Source: Candidatus Poribacteria bacterium
GTDB lineage: Bacteria; Poribacteria; WGA-4E; PCPOR2b
Assembly (NCBI GenBank): GCA_965208325.1
Contig: OZ242326.1
Span: 128,001-192,000, forward strand
Reading direction: 5' to 3'
DNA length: 64,000 nucleotides
Each line of letters opens with the position of its first letter. Position 1 is the stretch's first letter. Below, piece by piece: positions 7,031-62,239 of the stretch. The notes beneath the pieces are model-generated. The model was not told where the DNA came from, did no database searches, and saw nothing but the letters and a program-made list of their open reading frames with translations. A program made the translations under genes and the position numbers.

Positions 7031-7059
7031 TTGACTTTTGTATTGCAGTTGGGTAAAAT
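7031..7059 (+). promoter_or_regulatory. putative sigma70 promoter for the AhpC/TSA gene
   Basis: TTGACT-N17-TAAAAT. Confidence 0.5.
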
Positions 7060-7121
7060 CTTGGACATCAAAGCCAAACGCAGTTTATGGAGAGAAGACG
7101 GATTTGTCTTATTAGCCAACA

Positions 7122-7607
7122 ATGCCGCGAAGAAACAAAGTCCTCAACATCGGTGACAATGCGCCGCTGTTCACCTTGCAATCCGCTCAAAGAGACGATG
7201 TTAGTCTCGCATCGTATCGCAATAGGCGGCACGTCATTTTAGCCTTTTTCCGAGGCACATGGTGACCTAATAGCCGCCGCCAGTTAGGCGATTTACAAAC
7301 TCACTTGAATGAATATATCAGATTTGGCGCCGAAGCCATCGCGATTGCCGGGCAGTGGCCTCGAGAAGTTCGCCGTTATGCTCAGAGGCACGGCATCGCC
7401 TTTCCGTTACTCATTGATAAGCACCGGACCGTCATTAAAAGCTACGGCGTTTATCATTGGCTAGGACTCGACGCTTATAACATTGCACGTCCCTCGACAT
7501 TCATTGTTGATAAGGAGGGAATTATCCGATTCATTCATGTAGGCTCACACCAGTTTGACCTTCCTAAACATGCCAGTCTCATCGCATGTGTAGAATCCTT
7601 GGAATGA
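7122..7607 (+). CDS. AhpC/TSA (peroxiredoxin-like) selenoprotein, 161 aa, UGA at codon 48 read as Sec
   Basis: ATG 7122 reads MPRRNKVLNIGDNAPLFTLQS...VILAFFRGTW-TGA(7263-7265)-PNSRRQL, in frame with track ORF 7305..7607 (FPLLID, YGV, ARPSTFIVDKEGIIRF); TGA sits at the first Cys of the WCPxC motif. Confidence 0.85.
7266..7295 (+). promoter_or_regulatory. candidate bacterial SECIS element
   Basis: Stem CGCC(7278-81)/GGCG(7287-90) with AGUUA loop 16 nt after UGA; alternative CCUAA/UUAGG pairing. Confidence 0.5.
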
Positions 7608-21693: not shown

Positions 21694-22236
21694 ATGATAG
21701 ATAGAATCTTGAACCCCACCCTACTGCTGATTTCATTCTCGTTAATCGGTTTCCATCTCGCCTGCAAGCAGGCGCAAGAAAGCGCAACCCTATCGGGAAA
21801 TAACGCGGAATTACAAGAACAGAAAGAGGTAATTATGTCGGAGAAAGACGAAAAAACAGAAGAACAGTGGCGGCATTTGCTGACCCCCGAACAATTTCAC
21901 GTGACTCGGAGAAAGGGAACCGAAAGGGCTTTCACTGGTGAATATCACGACTTTAAGGGAAAAGGCGTGTACAAGTGCATCTGTTGCGGAAGCGAACTCT
22001 TCAGTTCTGAAACAAAGTATGACTCTGGAACCGGATGGCCCAGCTTCTGGCAGCCGATTTCGGCGGATAAAATTAGTACGGAAACTGATAACAGTTTCTT
22101 TATGACGCGTACTGAAGTATTGTGCAGTAAATGTGATGCACATCTCGGTCACGTTTTTGAAGATGGGCCGCCGCCGACCGGACTTCGTTACTGCATTAAT
22201 TCTGTCGCGCTTAATTTTTCGGAGAAGCGCGAGTAG
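21694..22236 (+). CDS. msrB: peptide methionine (R)-sulfoxide reductase with N-terminal signal-like extension
   Basis: GTERAF, GTGWPSF, HLGHVF, RYCINS. Confidence 0.95.
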
Positions 22237-36339: not shown

Positions 36340-37341
36340 GTGTTGACAAAGCCCATCTACATAGTTATAATGGGGATATTCGTAAGTTTACAGAGGAGAG
36401 CAGACTTGCCAGCGTACAAGCGATTCGTTGTTGCTGTTATTCTATGTACGACGTTACAGCCGTGGAACGTCGCCATTGGAGCGGACATACACCCGAACGC
36501 CGGTACAAGAGCCATGCCGTTTCTGAAAATCGGCATTGGGGCGCGAGCTATCGGCATGGGGGAATCCCAAGTTGCCGACGCAAGTGATCTCTACGCCTCC
36601 TATTGGAATCCGGCAGGCCTCGCTCGCGTTAAACGACCGCAGCTAGGCTTGATGCACAATGAATGGTTTGAAGGCATTAACCACGAGTTCTTTGGGTTTG
36701 TCCAACCCATTGGTGATGCGGGCGCGTTCGGCGGCAGTGCAATCTTTCTCGATTTTGGCGAACTGCAAGGGCGTGACGCCAGCGGCAACGAAACGAAAAA
36801 GTTCCGTCCCTACGATCTCGCGCTCGTTCTCTCCTATGCCCGCCAGTTCGCATCTGCGTTCTCGGTCGGCGTCAATGGAAAATGGATTCGGGAGCAAATC
36901 GACGACACAAACGCCCAAGTCATCGCATTCGACGTGGGGGGATTATATACCGTACCCAAAAGACCTCTCACCTTCGGGTTGAACATTCAACACCTCGGCG
37001 GCAAAGTGAAGTTTGTCGAGGAATCCTTTAATCTGCCGGTCAATATAAAGGTGGGTGCGGCTTATAAATTGCTCGACGATGCGTTCACCGTTGCCGCTGA
37101 TGTGAATCGCCCCTCTGACAATGATATCACGGTCGGATTCGGAACTGCACTCACGGTATCTCAACTGCTTCATCTGCGCACCGGTTACAAACACACCGTC
37201 GGTGGCAACGACTTGGGAGTTTCGTCGGGAATTACCGCTGGCATTGGATTTAGTATTGAGGGATTCCAGCTTGATTACGCCTTTGTCTCATACGGAAACC
37301 TCGGACCAACCCATCAATTTTCGCTCATCTTAAATTTTTAA
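36340..37341 (+). CDS. PorV/PorQ family outer-membrane beta-barrel protein (start uncertain)
   Basis: FLKIGIGARAIGMG, YWNPAGLA, LDYAF..YGNLG..HQFSL. Confidence 0.8.
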   Translation: MLTKPIYIVIMGIFVSLQRRADLPAYKRFVVAVILCTTLQPWNVAIGADIHPNAGTRAMPFLKIGIGARAIGMGESQVADASDLYASYWNPAGLARVKRPQLGLMHNEWFEGINHEFFGFVQPIGDAGAFGGSAIFLDFGELQGRDASGNETKKFRPYDLALVLSYARQFASAFSVGVNGKWIREQIDDTNAQVIAFDVGGLYTVPKRPLTFGLNIQHLGGKVKFVEESFNLPVNIKVGAAYKLLDDAFTVAADVNRPSDNDITVGFGTALTVSQLLHLRTGYKHTVGGNDLGVSSGITAGIGFSIEGFQLDYAFVSYGNLGPTHQFSLILNF

Positions 37342-52537: not shown

Positions 52538-54112
52538 TTAAGTTCCTTTGCGCGGCGTCATTGTGATTACCGGAATGATTAACTCGCTAGGTGAAATCCC
52601 GCCGTGCTGGAAGCCGCCGCGAAACTGTCGCGTATATTCATGATACTGATTTGGATAGACAAAATAGTAATCTTCCTTCGTTATAATATAGTTTTTACTT
52701 GAACCCTCAGCGGGTAACCTATATTCATTCGGATGCGCGATGTGTATAGCTTGATCTCTATTGCACCCGAGGTTCGTACCGACTTTGAAACGAAGGCTTG
52801 TGGACGTTTCGCGATTTCCAAGCGCTTTAGTAGGTCTATTGCAAAGAACGGAACCGTGGTCAGAGGTTAGGACGACGGTGGCGTTTCGGGTTGCAATAAT
52901 CTTCAAGACCTCAAAGAGCGCGGAATGGGCGAACCATGATTTTGCCAGTGAACGAAAGGCAGATTCATCCGGTGCTATTTGCTGAAGTACATTTGACTGT
53001 GAACGTTGATGGGTTAATATATCAATGAAGTTAACGACCAGAGCAGATAAACTGATTTGGTCGAAAGACGAAACTTGACGTAAAAACTCGTTGCCTCCCT
53101 TGGCGTCAAATATCTTGAAATACCTAATTCCTGGTTTAAGGTTCAGCCCGGCTCTTTGAAGCTTTTGTTGAAGGAGCTGTTTTTCATACCGATTCGTACT
53201 GGTTTCGTCTTCTGAGTTTTCCTGCCAATATTGCGGGAATTTCTTTGCAATCTCTTGAGGAAATAAACCGCTAAATAGTGCATTGCGAGAGTAGAGCGTT
53301 GCACTAGGCAAGATTGAGAAGTAAAAATCCCGATTGGTATAAAAATAGGGCCGAATCAGCGGCTCAATCGCCATCCAATGGTCGAGCCTGAGACAATCAA
53401 CAACAATAAAATAGGTGGGTCGTTTTTCGCGTAGATGTGGGATGACAAAATTATCTAACACATCCACAGATAAAATTGGCGAGTTTTCCCCTTTTAACCA
53501 GCGGGTATAGTCTCGCGAAACATAGTCCGAAAATGAAGCATTACACTCCTTTTTTAGCTCTACGTGAGTTTCTTCAAGGCCTGTTTGTCCCAATTGATCG
53601 AATTCGAGATCCCATTCGACCAATTTCAGATAAATTTCAATCCACTTGCGCCAATCCGGGGCGGTCTCTTTTGTGTGTCGAATCTGATCGAAATCGTGCG
53701 TGTAGTTGCGGGGTACCTGTCCTTCTGCAATCTTTGTCTGGTCTAGAACACGTTTCAAGGTAAGAGCGACCTGCGCTGCCCCGATTGGTTTCACCAGAAA
53801 ATCGCTAATCCGTTTCCCCAACGCCTCATTAACTACCTGATCATCATGGCATTGTGTTAGCATTACCACGGGCAAGGTCGGGTCAATCGCGCGGATGCGG
53901 TCCAATGCCGCTAAGCCGTCCTGCCCAGGCATCATCTGGTCAAGTAAAACCACATCATACCGCTGATTATTGAGCAGTGAAATTGCATCGTCCCCGTTGG
54001 ACACAGAGGTGACATCATAAGACTTTTCATTCAGAAAAAGGATGTGGGGTTTCAGGGCATCAATTTCATCATCAACCCATAAAATTTTGTGAGCGATATT
54101 TTGCATTAACAA
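52538..54112 (-). CDS. PorX-like response regulator (receiver + PglZ/alkaline-phosphatase-like domain)
   Basis: ILWVDDEID..KPHI, DQMMPG, DCLRLD, SILPSAT.YSRNALF, TSDHG, FQHGGIS. Confidence 0.88.
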   Translation of the reverse strand: MLMQNIAHKILWVDDEIDALKPHILFLNEKSYDVTSVSNGDDAISLLNNQRYDVVLLDQMMPGQDGLAALDRIRAIDPTLPVVMLTQCHDDQVVNEALGKRISDFLVKPIGAAQVALTLKRVLDQTKIAEGQVPRNYTHDFDQIRHTKETAPDWRKWIEIYLKLVEWDLEFDQLGQTGLEETHVELKKECNASFSDYVSRDYTRWLKGENSPILSVDVLDNFVIPHLREKRPTYFIVVDCLRLDHWMAIEPLIRPYFYTNRDFYFSILPSATLYSRNALFSGLFPQEIAKKFPQYWQENSEDETSTNRYEKQLLQQKLQRAGLNLKPGIRYFKIFDAKGGNEFLRQVSSFDQISLSALVVNFIDILTHQRSQSNVLQQIAPDESAFRSLAKSWFAHSALFEVLKIIATRNATVVLTSDHGSVLCNRPTKALGNRETSTSLRFKVGTNLGCNRDQAIHIAHPNEYRLPAEGSSKNYIITKEDYYFVYPNQYHEYTRQFRGGFQHGGISPSELIIPVITMTPRKGT

Positions 54113-57697: not shown

Positions 57698-59449
57698 TCA
57701 TTGGCTGAGGAGTCGTTGGAATTCGAGATTGTTGCGAATTCCGTCTAACGCCCTATCAGTCTTTGCCGTTTCCTGATAGGATTTATCAAGCGAAAATGCA
57801 GTTTCAAATGCATCCAGCGCTTTTTCGAGGTTATCGGTTTTTACGTACGTGAGACCCAAATGATAATGGGCAGACGCCAAATAATCACCTAACGCCACAG
57901 CCTTTTCCAAGGCGGCCGCCGCTTCCCTATACTCGCCGCGTTTGTAGAGCACCCATCCAAGTGTGTCGTGAAATGTCGCGTTATTTGGTTCGCTCAGTAA
58001 CGTTTTCCTTGCGATGGATTCCGCTTTCTCCAAATGTACACCTGCATCCGCGAATGACCAAGCTAACGAGTCGAGACTAGCGATTGCGTACTCACGTACG
58101 TGGGCGTCAGGATCTTTTTCAGCCAATCGTTCAAGTCCCGGAAGTGCTCGAATGTCTCCGAGATCGCCAAGCGCGAACGCAGCGCTGCGGCGGACATTTT
58201 CAGCCTCCGAATTGAGCGCCGCAATGAGCGGCTTTACGGCTTGTCGGCTGCCAACGCGGCCTAATGCAATCACGGCAGTACTGCGAATGAAATCTTTTTC
58301 GTCTTTTAGCATCGCAATTAACGGTTGCACTGCGCGTTTGTCTTCAAGTGCGCCCAAGGCAACGACAGCACTCACACGAACGGAACTATTTTCGTCCTGG
58401 AGGGCATCAATGAGCGGCGCCACTGCCCGTTGCTCGCCAAGCCGTCCCAATATGCTCGCTATTTCAGCACGGATAGGATTATTTTCAACTTCGAAAAGTG
58501 TAAGCAATGGCTCCACCGCTGCGGGACCAAGCTTCTCCAACGCTGAAGCCGCAGTGGCGCGCACCAGAAGATTTTCGTTGTTCAGGACCGGAATCAACAG
58601 CGCGATCGCCGGTTCACCGAGCGCTACCAGTGCCTCCGCAGCTTTGTCGCGGATTGAAGGCTCATCGTTAAGTGCGGCAACCAAGGGAATTCCTGCTCGC
58701 ATATCGCCAAGCTGCCCTAAAACAGAAGTTGCAGCCTCACGAACCAACGGGCTCTCATCTTTTAACGCCTCAATTAGCGGCTCGACAGCGCGTTTATCGC
58801 CAAGTTGCCCAAGTGCTAAGGCAGCAAATGGGCGGGTATAGCTGTCCTGATTGATGGCAGTAAGCAGCGGCTCCACTGCTTGTTTATCCCCAAGATGCCC
58901 TAACGCAACCGCAGCCGAAAGGCGGACATCATTCTTCTTGTCCATAAGCGCCGCGATTAACGGTTCTGTGGCGCGCGCGTCCCCAAGTTGGCCCAACGCG
59001 AAGGCAGTGCTGCTGCGTACTCTACTGTTTTTGTCCTTCAGTACATCAAGCAGCGGTTCAACGACTCGTCTGTCGCCAAGTTGCCCAAGTGCAATGGCAG
59101 CACTTTCGCGGACATTACGCCTCTCTTTCTTGTCCTTAAGGGCAGCTAGCAACGGCTCGACTGCCTGTATGTCGCCAAGATGACCCAACGCAACCGCAGC
59201 ACTCTCGCGGACATCACGCTTCTCGCTTTTGTCATTGAGGCGATCCAACAGTGGAACTACTGCTCGCGAATCCCCAAGCCTACCCAATGCTTCCGACGCT
59301 TCTATGCGAGCATCCTTATCTGCACTCATCAGTTTTTGGGAATACTTGGCGAATTCATCCAGTTTTTCCTCGGGCGATGCAGGTTGAAAAAATCCAAGTG
59401 ACATCGCGGCAATGAGGATTAAAACAGAAATCGACTTGTAGTTTTTCAT
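57698..59449 (-). CDS. exported HEAT-repeat protein with C-terminal TPRs
   Basis: Signal peptide; repeated AAxALGxLGDxRAVEPL; DTLGWVLYKRG TPR. Confidence 0.88.
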   Translation of the reverse strand: MKNYKSISVLILIAAMSLGFFQPASPEEKLDEFAKYSQKLMSADKDARIEASEALGRLGDSRAVVPLLDRLNDKSEKRDVRESAAVALGHLGDIQAVEPLLAALKDKKERRNVRESAAIALGQLGDRRVVEPLLDVLKDKNSRVRSSTAFALGQLGDARATEPLIAALMDKKNDVRLSAAVALGHLGDKQAVEPLLTAINQDSYTRPFAALALGQLGDKRAVEPLIEALKDESPLVREAATSVLGQLGDMRAGIPLVAALNDEPSIRDKAAEALVALGEPAIALLIPVLNNENLLVRATAASALEKLGPAAVEPLLTLFEVENNPIRAEIASILGRLGEQRAVAPLIDALQDENSSVRVSAVVALGALEDKRAVQPLIAMLKDEKDFIRSTAVIALGRVGSRQAVKPLIAALNSEAENVRRSAAFALGDLGDIRALPGLERLAEKDPDAHVREYAIASLDSLAWSFADAGVHLEKAESIARKTLLSEPNNATFHDTLGWVLYKRGEYREAAAALEKAVALGDYLASAHYHLGLTYVKTDNLEKALDAFETAFSLDKSYQETAKTDRALDGIRNNLEFQRLLSQ

Positions 59450-59455
59450 GTTATT

Positions 59456-62239
59456 TTACTCCACCTTTCCTCGCAATTCCGACACCTTCAATTGTTCAAC
59501 TCGTTCAAGGTATGTATCGTCCAACTCGAAAGCAGTGTCGAATTTCTCCTGCGCTTTCGCTTGCTGATTGTCCTTAAGGTATGCCAATCCCAAATGATAA
59601 TGCGCCGAGGCTGATCCAAATCGTCCTTGGATTGCTTTCTCGAAGGCGGAAATCGCGTCTGTAAACTTGCCCTGTTTGTAGAGCACCCAACCGAGAGTCT
59701 CATAAGAGGTTTGGGCATCGACGCGAAGCGCTATCGCATTCTTCACGAGAGATTCTGCTTCATCCAATCTGTTACCCGCGTTGGCAAAAGACCACGCGCG
59801 AATATTCTGCAAACTAGCTGTCGCAGAATTGCAGATTTGTTCATCAGCCTCTCTCTTTATGAGTTGTTCCAAGTCAAGAACCGCCCGTTCATCGCGAAGT
59901 TGCCCCAATGATTTCGCAGCAATACGGCGTACCCTTCTGCTTTCATCTCTCAGTGCAGCAATCAATGGCGCAACGGCTCGACCATCTCCCATACGCCCTA
60001 AAACAGAACCTGCCATACAGCGCATCGCTTCATCGTCGTCCTTTAGCGCATTTAACAACAATCCCATGCCGTGTTTGTCCCCAAGCTGTCCCAACCCGAT
60101 GGCGGCAATATATTTTGCTTCATCATCTTTGAGTGCGTTAAGCAGCGGTTCAATTGCCCGCTTGTCGCCCAAAAGCGCTAACCCAACCGCGGCCATAACC
60201 CGTACTTCATCATCTTTGAGCGCATTGAGTAGCGGTTCAACCGCCCGCTCGTCACCTAGCTGTCCTAGCGCTATGGCAGCATTTTTGCGAACGTAACTGT
60301 AGCTCTCTCCTGTGTCGCTATTGTAGTAACTATTTTTGTTTCTGAGAACCGCAATCAGAGGTTGCACCGCTCGATTGTCATCAAGTTGGCCTAAGGTAGA
60401 CACAAGCATATTTCTGAAATTTCCTTCTTCCGAATTGCGGATCTGGCCGCTATTCAAGACGTTGATGAGCGGCGTTGTTGCCCGTTTGTCTCCAAGCACT
60501 CCCAACGCAACGGCGGCATTCCAACGAACCTGCCAATTTTCATCATTAAGTGCCGCGGCTAACGGTTTCATCGCGCGTCGGACGCCGAGATACCCTAATG
60601 CAAAAGTAGCTTCAAGGCGGAATTGCGAATTCTCGTCTTCAAGCGCATCAACGAGTGATTGCACCGAGCGCTTGTCTCCTAGCCGACCCAGTGCATAAGC
60701 AGCGCCGCGGCGGACGATTTTATCCTGGCTTTCGTCCTTTAACACGGCAATCAGTGGCTTTGCCGCCGGTTTGCCACACTGCCCTAAAGCACGGGCAGCG
60801 TGCCAACAAAACCCCCAATCTGTATATTTGAGCGCGGCAATCAGTGGCTCTATCGCGCGCTTATCACCGAGACGGCCTAACGCTTTGGCAGCTTCAAAGC
60901 GAACTGCCCAATCTTGATTCTCAAGTGCGGCAATCAGTGGTTCTACTGCACGCCCGTCGCCAAGCTGGCCTAACGCTTTTGCGGCTTGCTGATGGACCTT
61001 CGCATCCCCGTCCTGGAGCGAAACGAGGAGAGGTTCGACGGCCCGCCTGTCCCCAAGTGTACCTAGGGCGCGTGCGGCGTTCGCGCGGCCTCCCCAATTC
61101 TTATCTTGAAGTGCAACAATCAACTCATCTACCGCTCGATTATCATTTAGCTGTTCCAACGCAGCTACAGCGCTGTTACGAATGGAACCCTGCTCGTCCT
61201 TCAGCGCGGCGATTAGGATATCAACCGCTCGCTTATCACCAAGCTGTCCCAACGCGGCTAGGGCATTATTGCGGACTACACCATCACTATCGTTGGAAAG
61301 TACGATGAGCGGTTCTACTGCTTGCGGGTCTCCAATTCGACCGAGTATTCGCGCCGCGTCGGCGCGGACAGAACTATTTCCACGCTTGAGTATAGACAGT
61401 AAGGGAACTACTGCCGGTTCACCTATCCGCCCTAGCGTCGAGACAGCGGCGGCGTGAACCAAAACATCCGTCTCTCCAAGCGCAGAAATCAGCGCCGCAA
61501 CCGCGGGTTCGCCAAGCAGCTCCAATGCGTTCGCGGCTCTTTCGCGTACAGAAATTTCATTGTCGCGAAAAGCGGCGATTAGCGGTTCTACTGCTCGCGT
61601 GTCGTCAAGTTTTCCAAGCACCGATGCAGCAGCGTCGCGGACAAATGGAGTTCCATCTCTGAGTGCTGCAATCAGCGGTTCAACCGCCCGCTTATCGTTA
61701 AGCTGCCCCAACGCAAGCGCAGCAAAAGGGCGCGAAAGGTCATCTTCCTCAATCACTGCAAGCAGCGCCTCTGATGCCCGCGCATCGCCAAGATGGCCCA
61801 ACGCAATTGCAGCACTATTTCGCACGGTGCGCTGGTCATCTTTCAATGCCGCAATTAAGGGTTCTAACGATTGCGGCCCGCCAAGTTGCCCCAATGCAAA
61901 TGCGGCGCTGCTCCTTACATTGTCACCCGTAACTTTCAAAACCGCAATCAACGGTTCCACTGCACGGTCGTCACCCAATTTACCCAAAGCAATCGCGGCA
62001 CTCTCACGGACAGTACAATCTTCCGCCTGATCCTGGAGGACATCCACTAGCGGCATAACCGCCCGCACATCGCCATATAGTCCCAATTCCGCCGCAGCTT
62101 CCTTGCGGAGAAGTTTATCCTCTCCTTCTAACTGCTTGATGTAAACTGCTACTTCATCTTTGTGGTTATGGCTATCACATCCGCATAACGCTGCAAAACC
62201 AATCGCAATGAAGACAGACATCGTCCTGTGTTTTCGCAT
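59456..62239 (-). CDS. HEAT-repeat lipoprotein with C-terminal TPRs
   Basis: Lipobox-like ALCGC; more than 20 HEAT repeats; ETLGWVLYKQG TPR. Confidence 0.88.
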   Translation of the reverse strand: MRKHRTMSVFIAIGFAALCGCDSHNHKDEVAVYIKQLEGEDKLLRKEAAAELGLYGDVRAVMPLVDVLQDQAEDCTVRESAAIALGKLGDDRAVEPLIAVLKVTGDNVRSSAAFALGQLGGPQSLEPLIAALKDDQRTVRNSAAIALGHLGDARASEALLAVIEEDDLSRPFAALALGQLNDKRAVEPLIAALRDGTPFVRDAAASVLGKLDDTRAVEPLIAAFRDNEISVRERAANALELLGEPAVAALISALGETDVLVHAAAVSTLGRIGEPAVVPLLSILKRGNSSVRADAARILGRIGDPQAVEPLIVLSNDSDGVVRNNALAALGQLGDKRAVDILIAALKDEQGSIRNSAVAALEQLNDNRAVDELIVALQDKNWGGRANAARALGTLGDRRAVEPLLVSLQDGDAKVHQQAAKALGQLGDGRAVEPLIAALENQDWAVRFEAAKALGRLGDKRAIEPLIAALKYTDWGFCWHAARALGQCGKPAAKPLIAVLKDESQDKIVRRGAAYALGRLGDKRSVQSLVDALEDENSQFRLEATFALGYLGVRRAMKPLAAALNDENWQVRWNAAVALGVLGDKRATTPLINVLNSGQIRNSEEGNFRNMLVSTLGQLDDNRAVQPLIAVLRNKNSYYNSDTGESYSYVRKNAAIALGQLGDERAVEPLLNALKDDEVRVMAAVGLALLGDKRAIEPLLNALKDDEAKYIAAIGLGQLGDKHGMGLLLNALKDDDEAMRCMAGSVLGRMGDGRAVAPLIAALRDESRRVRRIAAKSLGQLRDERAVLDLEQLIKREADEQICNSATASLQNIRAWSFANAGNRLDEAESLVKNAIALRVDAQTSYETLGWVLYKQGKFTDAISAFEKAIQGRFGSASAHYHLGLAYLKDNQQAKAQEKFDTAFELDDTYLERVEQLKVSELRGKVE

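What the first reader, a model, noticed from the sequence alone, without database searches (positions are those of the whole stretch)
7122..7607. Hidden selenoprotein: AhpC/TSA-like redoxin with a UxxS motif
Seen: the track's 100-aa ORF is only the C-terminal part. An in-frame upstream segment gives a complete redoxin N-terminus (IGDNAPLFTL...LAFFRGTW). A TGA falls exactly where the catalytic Cys of WCPxC belongs, followed 16 nt later by a hairpin with a GU-containing loop, and a promoter lies upstream. The second motif position is Ser (AGC), so the motif is UPNS rather than UxxC. Known: Prx-like UxxC selenoproteins and SECIS elements immediately 3' of the UGA exist in bacteria. Inferred: Sec is inserted, and the enzyme works without the usual resolving Cys or uses the C-terminal Cys (LIAC).
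Basis: partly seen in the sequence, partly recalled or inferred. Interest (0 to 1): 0.75.

Follow-up and report, generated by a model that had tools for sequence, protein, structure and literature searches.

The report
Sponge-symbiont redoxin with selenocysteine codon
A small antioxidant-type enzyme gene that looks cut in half by a stop codon is really one gene in which that stop codon almost certainly encodes selenocysteine, a kind of gene that is already known but is routinely mis-annotated.

Summary
Window 7122-7607 (+) is one 161-codon AhpC/TSA (PF00578) gene, interrupted only by TGA at 7263-7265, where the first Cys of a WCPxC redox motif belongs. The motif reads U-P-N-S.

In 80 of 80 related loci kept from species-representative genomes (76 titled Poribacteria, protein identity 59-96%), the same codon is TGA, never TGY or TGG. 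Both flanks diverge as coding sequence, and TGA still ends ordinary genes. A minimal SECIS-like hairpin follows after a 16-nt spacing. Its AGUU(A) loop is invariant and its 5' arm shows strong synonymous-site constraint, but its stability is unremarkable.

No Sec machinery lies in the window. A published table lists SelA, SelB and SelD COGs for the Poribacteria WGA-3G genome, which carries an orthologue.

The family has no conserved Cys: the C-terminal LIAC Cys occurs in only 39 of 81. It is therefore a single-selenol enzyme. Sec sits at the thioredoxin-type nucleophile position, and Ser sits at the peroxiredoxin peroxidatic-Cys position.

Prx-like selenoproteins are well known, and reviews already catalogue an AhpC/TSA UxxS form. 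This is a new member of a known kind. Interest is moderate.

The parts
7122..7607 (+). Complete gene: 161 codons (Sec at codon 48) plus TGA stop. AhpC/TSA-fold, thioredoxin-like redox protein.
   Evidence: PF00578 E 2.5e-28 spans the TGA. AF2 pLDDT 89.8. Foldseek TM 0.89 to Bcp4 and 0.86 to AhpE.
7122..7124 (+). ATG start codon
   Evidence: ATG lies exactly 47 codons before the TGA in 81/81 genes, with no in-frame stop between.
7263..7265 (+). In-frame TGA, inferred selenocysteine codon (U48), at the first position of the redox motif
   Evidence: TGA at the aligned codon in 80/80 related loci. Homologues have Cys here: P0116 CPNS; P0117, P0118 and P0121 CPNC.
7272..7274 (+). AGC, Ser51: fourth motif position. 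It aligns with the peroxidatic Cys of AhpE and the second Cys of CxxC relatives.
   Evidence: Ser in 79/80 loci, Thr in L008; alignment to AhpE FFPLAFTGICQGEL.
7278..7290 (+). SECIS-like minimal hairpin: stem 7278-7281 / 7287-7290 (4 bp), apical loop AGUUA 7282-7286 with G at loop position 2, 16 nt after the UGA
   Evidence: -6.4 kcal/mol. CAGTT is invariant in 81/81. Synonymous constraint shown. Pair counts.
7305..7607 (+). The 100-aa TTG-started ORF that gene callers report. It is the C-terminal part of the real gene.
   Evidence: 113 of the 120 listed database homologues are such C-terminal pieces of 91-120 aa.
7587..7589 (+). TGT, Cys156 (LIAC). Not conserved, so not a family-wide resolving Cys.
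   Evidence: Cys in 39/81, Ser 18, Ala 17, other 7.
7605..7607 (+). TGA used as the true stop of the same gene
   Evidence: Terminal stops of the 81 orthologues: TAA 49, TGA 26, TAG 6.
7031..7059 (+). Promoter-like site TTGACT-17-TAAAAT, 63 nt upstream of the ATG (weak evidence)
   Evidence: 10/12 match. 2 sites found in the region against 1.3 expected.

Best explanation
Window 7122-7607 is one intact gene of a Poribacteria (sponge-symbiont phylum) genome. It encodes a 161-residue cytoplasmic redox protein with a peroxiredoxin-type thioredoxin fold.

UGA-48 is decoded as selenocysteine by the SelB/tRNA-Sec system. A short hairpin whose AGUU(A) loop starts 16 nt after the UGA directs this. This step is inferred from conservation, not shown.

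Sec sits at the N-cap of the active-site helix. That is the position of the nucleophilic first Cys of WCPxC proteins (ResA/TlpA/PRX-like2) and of the conserved Thr of the peroxiredoxin TxxC motif. The position of the peroxidatic or second Cys is Ser.

The family has no conserved Cys, so the enzyme is a single-selenol catalyst. The proposed cycle is as follows. The selenolate attacks an oxidised substrate: a peroxide, giving a selenenic acid, or a disulfide or sulfenic acid, giving a selenenylsulfide. It is then regenerated by an external thiol, as in glutathione peroxidase, 1-Cys peroxiredoxins and CxxS oxidoreductases. The chemistry and the substrate are inferred only.
For: (1) One AhpC/TSA domain spans the TGA.

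(2) 80/80 related loci have TGA at that codon: 79 UPNS, 1 UPNT. Protein identity to the query is 59-96% and 76 loci are titled Poribacteria. No locus has TGY or TGG, although third positions of flanking codons differ in 51-55% of pairwise comparisons.

(3) Mean pairwise divergence at codon positions 1/2/3 is 0.20/0.14/0.51 upstream and 0.21/0.14/0.55 downstream. ATG lies 47 codons before the TGA in 81/81.

(4) TGA is an ordinary stop. It ends 16 of 54 window ORFs and 26 of 81 orthologues.

(5) Sec/Cys pairing: homologues carry CPNS or CPNC. Among the best 150 of 51,746 profile hits, a regular expression written for the motif found it as CxxC 67 times, CxxS 2, CxxA 2 and WxxS 1.

(6) RNA-level constraint after the UGA, compared with the same residues elsewhere in these genes:
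- Ser AGY 80/80, against 282/703 elsewhere.
- Arg CGY 160/162, against 330/863.
- Gln CAG 81/81, against 294/557.
- Leu TTR 81/81, against 367/1233.

(7) The hairpin meets three of the four published bSECIS criteria as given in PMC13188914 section 5: loop size, G in the first two loop positions, and 16-nt spacing. Stem cells are 79.1% paired in 56 loci and 81.9% paired in 25 sequences.

(8) Sec trait in the phylum:
- Supplementary file 2 of PMC5649159 lists COG1921 SelA 2, COG3276 SelB 1 and COG0709 SelD 1 for Ca. Poribacteria WGA-3G (columns counted by hand). L073, from WGA-3G, carries the TGA gene.
- PMC13582414 names Poribacteria among phyla with Sec-type hydrogenases (passage).

(9) The AF2 model (pLDDT 89.8) places U48 immediately before helix 49-60. 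HMMER aligns U48 with Thr and S51 with the peroxidatic Cys of AhpE.

(10) Cys156 is present in only 39/81, and no other Cys column is conserved.
Against: - No selA, selB, selD or tRNA-Sec in the 64-kb window or in 1.52 Mb of loci plus window. Their presence in this genome is unverified.
- The COG1921 count in WGA-3G may include DgaE-type SelA relatives such as the one.
- The window's hairpin has only 4 bp and -6.4 kcal/mol, short of the -7.5 criterion.
- Only 19/81 sequences have 4 or more contiguous pairs closing the AGUU(A) loop.
- Against synonymous-codon nulls the region is only slightly more stable: median z -0.70, with 7/81 at p<=0.05.
- Covariation is thin. The 5' arm is nearly invariant, and an alternative register (slide -3) pairs 78.2% of cells. 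There is no covariation in the 25-sequence group.
- No protein or selenium evidence exists. Substrate and reductant are unknown.
Confidence: 0.8

Rival explanations
1. The UGA is recoded, but as cysteine rather than selenocysteine. A SelC-like tRNA charged with Cys (tRNA-ReC / selC*) would be delivered at the same hairpin, and the protein would be a CxxS thiol oxidoreductase.
For: PMC13582414 (passages) notes that genomes with tRNA-ReC may read SECIS-associated UGA as Cys, and that bioinformatics cannot tell the two apart. A Cys form with the same CPNS motif exists (P0116).
Against: If Cys were the product, TGY would be an equivalent single-step alternative. It appears in 0/80 loci. SelD, which is needed only for selenium use, is listed for Poribacteria WGA-3G. 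No tRNA of any such kind was seen in the DNA available.
Confidence: 0.05
2. The UGA is read through at low level by a near-cognate tRNA (Trp), or the organism reads TGA as a sense codon (code 4 or 25), giving GTWWPNS or GTWGPNS.
For: Three public full-length predictions (P0002-P0004) carry W at this position. The base after the UGA is C in 81/81. From recalled knowledge, not from a tool result, this is a leaky termination context.
Against: TGA ends 16/54 window ORFs and 26/81 orthologues, and family matches are full-length under table 11. TGG occurs in 0/80 loci. Trp or Gly at the nucleophile position of a redox motif that is Cys in relatives would inactivate it. The W in P0002-P0004 is most simply a gene-caller's code choice (inference).
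Confidence: 0.03
3. The gene is broken (pseudogene or assembly error), or is truly split into a 47-aa peptide and a separate 100-aa protein that starts at TTG 7305.
For: Gene callers and NCBI records annotate only the C-terminal piece. P0009, P0018 and P0114 are named 'peroxiredoxin family protein' and P0098 'hypothetical protein'; all are 103-115 aa.
Against: The same TGA is present in 80/80 independently assembled genomes. Both halves are under equal purifying selection. The thioredoxin fold needs both halves: strands 18-43 and the active-site helix 49-60 lie around the TGA. The 13 codons between the TGA and TTG 7305 are conserved as coding sequence.
Confidence: 0.02

Closest known systems
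AhpC/TSA family (peroxiredoxin-like family) selenoprotein with UxxS motif. It is listed in the review tables of PMC9312934 (pfam13911, CAB1081847.1) and PMC13188914 (cd02970, MDX2448127.1). Both attribute it to the Olavius algarvensis symbiont study PMC1976440.
   Same: Prx-like thioredoxin fold, a single Sec in a UxxS motif, and no second redox residue in the motif. It is a predicted (not experimentally characterised) selenoprotein, as here (table rows seen as passages).
   Different: Whether it is the same family could not be tested, because the listed accessions could not be fetched. The window protein scores below the PF13911 cut-off (15.8 bits against 27, E 0.019), and cd02970 is not in the libraries at hand. 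The main text of PMC1976440 does not name this family. Its supplements were not read.
Prx-like thiol:disulfide oxidoreductase selenoprotein ('Prx-like 1', pfam00578, UxxC/UxxU)
   Same: PF00578 domain, Sec at the first position of a thioredoxin-like redox motif, and a bSECIS directly after the UGA. It is abundant in marine metagenomes: 225 Sec sequences in GOS (PMC2398784 Table 2).
   Different: The resolving Cys at motif position 4 is Ser in 79/80 loci and Thr in 1/80. No intramolecular selenenylsulfide within the motif is possible.
AhpE (Rv2238c) of Mycobacterium tuberculosis, a 1-Cys peroxiredoxin, and archaeal Bcp4
   Same: Closest solved structures by sequence (E 3.3e-18) and by fold (TM 0.86-0.89, 25-32% identity). 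Like this protein, AhpE has one redox-active residue and an external reductant.
   Different: The redox residue is displaced by three positions. U48 aligns with the Thr and S51 with the peroxidatic Cys of the AhpE T-G-I-C motif. The Prx P-x-x-x-T-x-x-C signature is absent (F-R-G-T-W-U-P-N-S).
ResA / TlpA / CcmG (DsbE) WCxxC thiol-disulfide oxidoreductases
   Same: Best NCBIfam match is ResA (E 1.3e-17). Shares the G-x-W-C-P-x-C-type motif with the nucleophile at the helix N-cap. In the window, ccmC and ccmB lie 1.2-3 kb away.
   Different: The score is far below the cut-off (64 against 170 bits). The ccm neighbourhood is shared by only 3/80 loci. From inspection only, with no predictor run: the N-terminus (MPRRNKVLNIGD...) looks as if it has no signal peptide or membrane anchor.
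SelL-related redox protein (NF040769) and PrxU (NF040737, TxxU selenoperoxiredoxin)
   Same: Both are Prx-fold families linked to Sec use, and both give weak matches (53.7 and 21.3 bits).
   Different: Both matches are far below their cut-offs (120 and 270 bits). Sec-containing Prx is listed with a TxxU motif in PMC2398784 Table 2, which puts Sec at the peroxidatic position; here that position is Ser.

Membership tests
Bacterial selenoprotein gene (Sec-UGA) | In-frame UGA conserved among orthologues, with coding conservation on both sides | tested here: met
   80/80 loci have TGA. Codon-position divergence is 0.20/0.14/0.51 upstream and 0.21/0.14/0.55 downstream.
Bacterial selenoprotein gene (Sec-UGA) | Cys-containing homologues aligned at the UGA (Sec/Cys pair) | tested here: met
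   P0116 has CPNS; P0117, P0118 and P0121 have CPNC. CxxC dominates among the best 150 profile hits.
Bacterial selenoprotein gene (Sec-UGA) | bSECIS: 3-9 nt apical loop, 4-16 bp upper stem, G in the first two loop positions, 16-37 nt spacing, MFE <= -7.5 kcal/mol (PMC13188914) | tested here: inconclusive
   Window: 5-nt loop AGUUA, G at loop position 2, 4-bp stem and 16-nt spacing all meet the criteria, but the energy is -6.4 kcal/mol. Across 81 sequences, 60 reach -7.5 for the constrained 57-nt fold, but only 19 have 4 or more contiguous closing pairs. Stability is close to the synonymous null. bSECISearch itself was not available.
Bacterial selenoprotein gene (Sec-UGA) | selA, selB, selC and selD present in the same genome | not testable with these tools
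   None were found in the window or in 1.52 Mb of loci plus window. Indirect support: SelA, SelB and SelD COGs are listed for Poribacteria WGA-3G, the source of L073.
Bacterial selenoprotein gene (Sec-UGA) | Selenium shown in the protein | not testable with these tools
   This needs 75Se labelling or mass spectrometry.
Pfam AhpC-TSA (PF00578) | Score above the gathering cut-off over the whole domain | tested here: met
   99 bits against a cut-off of 26; profile positions 1-123 of 124.
Peroxiredoxin (catalytic sense) | Peroxidatic Cys/Sec in the PxxxTxxC(U) motif | tested here: not met
   The aligned residue is Ser51 and the Thr position holds Sec. Pro of the PxxxT motif is replaced by Arg44 (alignment to AhpE).
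AhpC-TSA_2 (PF13911) / PRX-like2 (cd02970), the family under which the catalogued UxxS selenoprotein is filed | Score above the PF13911 cut-off; a cd02970 match | tested here: not met
   PF13911 scores 15.8 bits against a cut-off of 27 (E 0.019). The relatives tested (L073, L004, P0116-P0118) score 13.2-26.6 bits, also below it. cd02970 could not be tested because no CDD library was available.
ResA / CcmG thiol-disulfide oxidoreductase | NCBIfam score above cut-off; CxxC motif; extracytoplasmic location | tested here: not met
   64.2 bits against 170. The motif is UxxS. No signal peptide is apparent by inspection; no predictor was run.

The most novel reading that the evidence does not exclude
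Poribacteria may carry a phylum-wide redox enzyme with no conserved Cys, in which the peroxiredoxin active site is 'inverted'. Selenium sits at the Thr position and a hydroxyl at the peroxidatic-Cys position (TxxC becomes UxxS). This would be a catalytic arrangement distinct from both peroxiredoxins and CxxC oxidoreductases. In most lineages (54/81 loci) the gene lies directly upstream of ribD-ribE-ribBA-ribH on the same strand, so its substrate may be tied to flavin metabolism rather than to general peroxide defence.
Probability: 0.15. Interest if true: 0.6.

Novelty: new member of a known kind. Interest (0 to 1): 0.4.

Why it matters
The practical point is annotation. This gene is truncated in public data. 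Of the 120 listed database relatives, 113 are C-terminal pieces, including four NCBI Poribacteria records, and three further predictions read the codon as Trp. Sponge-symbiont selenoproteomes are therefore under-counted.

Biologically, it adds a clade conserved across 80 species-level genomes, most of them Poribacteria, to the Prx-like selenoproteins. It is a clean natural example of a single-selenol UxxS site with no conserved Cys. Such a site is useful for asking what Sec does when no resolving thiol is present.

It also fits the earlier observation that selA and selB are enriched in sponge symbionts (PMC5649159, passage).

It does not open a new category. Prx-like selenoproteins and a UxxS AhpC/TSA form are already catalogued.

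Tried and rejected
- **Thermodynamic support for the hairpin.** MFE against dinucleotide shuffles gave z +1.24. Against synonymous-codon nulls the median z was -0.70. RNAalifold on all 81 sequences gave no consensus structure; only subgroup folds did. Stability is therefore not evidence for the hairpin.
- **Covariation.** One pair (alignment columns 18:25) shows CG, UG, UA and AU variants, but the alternative register pairs as well. The second group shows no covariation.
- **Rfam at gathering thresholds.** No hit in the window or in 8 loci. That means no tRNA-Sec, no SECIS family and no FMN riboswitch.
- **Sec machinery near the gene.** Three checks found nothing. ARAGORN was run on the window and on 60 of the 80 loci; L061-L080 were not scanned. 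Recalled short motifs for SelD, SelA and the GTPase were searched in six-frame translations of 1.52 Mb. NCBIfam was run on 53 window ORFs.
- **Other selenoprotein genes.** Ten low-overlap TGA-spanning ORFs were found in the window. Apart from the target, the two translated were not protein-like. A screen for conserved in-frame TGA over all loci returned only shadow-frame noise.
- **CcmG/ResA role suggested by nearby ccmC and ccmB.** Rejected: that synteny is shared by only 3/80 loci.
- **C-terminal Cys as resolving residue.** Rejected as a family feature.
- **SelA next to the gene in 18 loci.** It is a DgaE-family relative, below the cut-offs, and not SelA proper.
- **Identity with the catalogued UxxS family.** This could not be tested, because the accessions are not retrievable here.
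- **Not examined.** The 168 of 248 genome relatives not kept were not examined.

Full report
**Observation**

The + strand of the window has ATG at 7122 and 47 sense codons ending ...LAFFRGTW. TGA follows at 7263-7265, then CCT AAT AGC CGC CGC CAG TTA (P-N-S-R-R-Q-L). The frame stays open to a second TGA at 7605-7607.

Under table 11 the ORF list shows only the 47-aa piece and a 100-aa TTG-started ORF at 7305-7607.

Read through, the 161-residue product matches Pfam AhpC-TSA over residues 10-137, profile positions 1-123 of 124, E 2.5e-28. It also matches Redoxin (E 3.5e-15). One domain therefore spans the TGA. No NCBIfam model reaches its cut-off. The best are ResA (64 bits against 170), SelL-related redox protein (54 against 120) and BCP (51 against 140).

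**Is the TGA real and conserved?**

A word-indexed search of 5.8 billion proteins listed 120 relatives.
- 113 are 91-120 aa and cover only 46-67% of the query. They are the part after the TGA, the signature of a family cut by gene callers at one place.
- Three full-length predictions carry W at the site.
- Four more distant full-length relatives (40-42% identity) carry Cys: P0116 with CPNS, and P0117, P0118 and P0121 with CPNC.

A scan of one genome per species (GTDB-based collection) found 248 relatives, of which the best 80 were kept. 76 are titled Poribacteria and 4 'uncultured bacterium'. Identity to the query is 59-96%.

In 80 of 80 the aligned codon is TGA. The motif is U-P-N-S in 79 and U-P-N-T in one, L008.

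Other checks on the same 81 genes (80 loci plus the window):
- An ATG lies exactly 47 codons upstream in 81/81, with no intervening stop.
- Mean pairwise divergence at codon positions 1/2/3 is 0.20/0.14/0.51 upstream of the TGA and 0.21/0.14/0.55 downstream. Both parts evolve as one coding frame.
- The third base of the TGA never changes to give Cys or Trp.
- TGA is still a stop in these organisms. It ends 26 of the 81 orthologues (TAA 49, TAG 6) and 16 of 54 window ORFs. Window proteins match their families full-length under table 11.

A sequencing error, a pseudogene and a reassigned code are thereby excluded as far as sequence can exclude them.

**The RNA element**

After the UGA, the sequence AGY CGY CGY CAG UUR is almost fixed at synonymous sites. 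Frequencies are compared with the same residues elsewhere in the same genes:

| Residue | Codon choice after the UGA | Same choice elsewhere in these genes |
|---|---|---|
| Ser | AGY 80/80 | 282/703 |
| Arg (two codons) | CGY 160/162 | 330/863 |
| Gln | CAG 81/81 | 294/557 |
| Leu | TTR 81/81 | 367/1233 |

The Pro and Asn codons just before this stretch vary freely.

A hairpin closes on the invariant loop AGUU in 56 loci, and on AGUUA in the window and 24 loci. The loop starts 16 nt after the UGA and has G at its second position.

The published bSECIS model asks for a 3-9 nt loop, a 4-16 bp stem, G in the first two loop positions, 16-37 nt spacing and MFE <= -7.5 kcal/mol (PMC13188914 section 5, read in full). 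The window meets the first four with a 4-bp stem (7278-7281 / 7287-7290). It misses the energy criterion at -6.4 kcal/mol.

Across the family the stem is imperfect:
- 79.1% of 450 pair cells are standard pairs in the 56-locus group (0 of 500 shuffles as high). An alternative register pairs 78.2%.
- 81.9% of 144 cells pair in the other group, with no covariation.
- Only 19/81 have 4 or more contiguous closing pairs.
- Stability barely exceeds synonymous-codon nulls: median z -0.70, with 7/81 at p<=0.05.
- The first plain fold was no better than shuffles.

So the case for a SECIS rests on position, on the conserved G-containing loop and on synonymous constraint. It does not rest on thermodynamics.

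**Sec machinery**

None is in the window: no tRNA, no selA, selB or selD among 53 ORFs, and no Rfam hit. None lies near the gene in the loci either.

Indirect evidence comes from two papers.
- Supplementary file 2 of PMC5649159 lists COG1921 SelA 2, COG3276 SelB 1 and COG0709 SelD 1 for Ca. Poribacteria WGA-3G (three table rows seen, columns counted by hand). L073 comes from WGA-3G and carries the TGA gene. One caveat: COG1921 may include DgaE-type relatives.
- The main text of the same paper says SelA and SelB co-occur in most sponge-symbiont bins (passage).
- PMC13582414 names Poribacteria among nine phyla with Sec-type group 4 hydrogenases (passage).

**The protein**

AlphaFold2 with a 45-sequence alignment gives a confident model: pLDDT 89.8, pTM 0.86. 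It has strand 37-43, then R-G-T-W-U, then helix 49-60. Residue 48 therefore caps the active-site helix.

Foldseek finds Bcp4 (TM 0.89) and M. tuberculosis AhpE (TM 0.86) as nearest structures. AhpE is also the best sequence match in the PDB (E 3.3e-18).

In that alignment FFRGTW-U-PN-S-RRQL pairs with FFPLAF-T-GI-C-QGEL. Sec aligns with the conserved Thr, and Ser51 aligns with the peroxidatic Cys. This is the geometry of WCPxC proteins, in which the first Cys is the nucleophile.

Among the best 150 of 51,746 profile hits in 1.84 billion representatives, a regular expression written for the motif found it as CxxC 67 times, CxxS 2, CxxA 2 and WxxS 1. That count is not from an alignment. It fits the view that the Poribacteria clade derives from a CxxC family, having changed the first Cys to Sec and lost the second (inference).

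The C-terminal Cys156 (LIAC) is Cys in 39/81, Ser in 18 and Ala in 17. No other Cys column exists. The only conserved redox residue is therefore Sec.

**Mechanism (inferred)**

SelB-dependent insertion of Sec at UGA-48 gives a single-selenol enzyme. The selenolate reacts with a peroxide or an oxidised sulfur substrate. The resulting selenenic acid or selenenylsulfide is resolved by an external thiol. The substrate and the reductant are unknown.

**Context**

The window's gene order (rsmI, a hypothetical gene, the redoxin, a K+ channel, ccmC, ccmB) is shared only with L001-L003. Nearby ccm genes therefore say nothing about function.
- In 54/81 loci the gene directly precedes ribD, ribE, ribBA and ribH on the same strand.
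- In 18/81 loci a DgaE-family (SelA-related) PLP enzyme precedes it.
- No riboswitch was detected.

**Comparison with what is known**

Prx-like selenoproteins with UxxC are among the commonest predicted bacterial selenoproteins: Prx-like 1, pfam00578, with 225 sequences in GOS (PMC2398784 Table 2, passages; PMC1088965, passages). In those two papers UxxS is listed only for arsenate reductase.

Two reviews, however, list an 'AhpC/TSA family protein', or 'peroxiredoxin-like family protein', with UxxS. They file it under pfam13911 or cd02970 and attribute it to the Olavius symbiont study (PMC9312934 and PMC13188914, table rows seen as passages). The main text of that study, PMC1976440, does not name it.

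The window protein is below the PF13911 cut-off, and the listed accessions could not be compared. Identity with the catalogued family therefore stays open.

Library searches for Poribacteria with selenocysteine (3 papers), selenoprotein (1 paper) or selenium (9 papers), and for selenoprotein with sponge, symbiont and SECIS (1 paper), turned up no title or abstract start that describes this gene. Passages were read in only two of those papers, and those passages concern SelA/SelB COGs and Sec-type hydrogenases.

**Verdict**

It is a new member, possibly a sibling clade, of a known kind. It is valuable mainly as an annotation correction and as a clean single-selenol example. Interest 0.4.

Noticed in passing
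L025-L080 (54 of 81 loci), e.g. L057:10508-14197: In most lineages the selenoprotein gene is followed on the same strand by ribD, ribE, ribBA and ribH (riboflavin synthesis). The gap before the first possible ribD start is very short. No FMN riboswitch was found in the six loci of this group that were scanned.
   Followed up: partly
L004:8572-9867 (+), and 17 other loci (group L004-L024): A DgaE-family, SelA-related PLP enzyme lies about 130 nt upstream of the selenoprotein gene on the same strand (TIGR01437 E 4.6e-53, 180 bits, below the cut-off of 385). It is not SelA proper. Its adjacency to a Sec gene is unexplained.
   Followed up: partly
Public protein predictions P0002-P0004, and P0143 in the profile search: Some public gene calls read this TGA as Trp (GTWWPNS), apparently by choosing an alternative code for the contig. 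Four NCBI Poribacteria records annotate only the 103-115-aa C-terminal piece.
   Followed up: partly
window 21694-22233 (+): An MsrB (methionine-R-sulfoxide reductase) gene is complete under table 11. No in-frame TGA was seen here, or in any other window ORF that looked protein-like.
   Followed up: partly
window 36340-37338 (+) and 52541-54112 (-): Type IX secretion components, a PorV/PorQ family protein and the PorX response regulator (E 7e-190), are encoded in the window.
   Followed up: no
window 57701-62239 (-): Two large HEAT/TPR-repeat proteins give many repeated matches to phycocyanobilin-lyase CpcE/NblB-type repeats. Their function is unknown.
   Followed up: no
P0124 (1430 aa), best hit of the profile search: A very long protein contains five stretches matching this redoxin profile. 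The motif search found CPFS and CQFS (CxxS) in it. This is a multi-domain CxxS relative of unknown origin.
   Followed up: no
window 7097-7121 and the same stretch in 6 loci: No obvious Shine-Dalgarno sequence precedes the conserved ATG in the window or in the six loci inspected.
   Followed up: no
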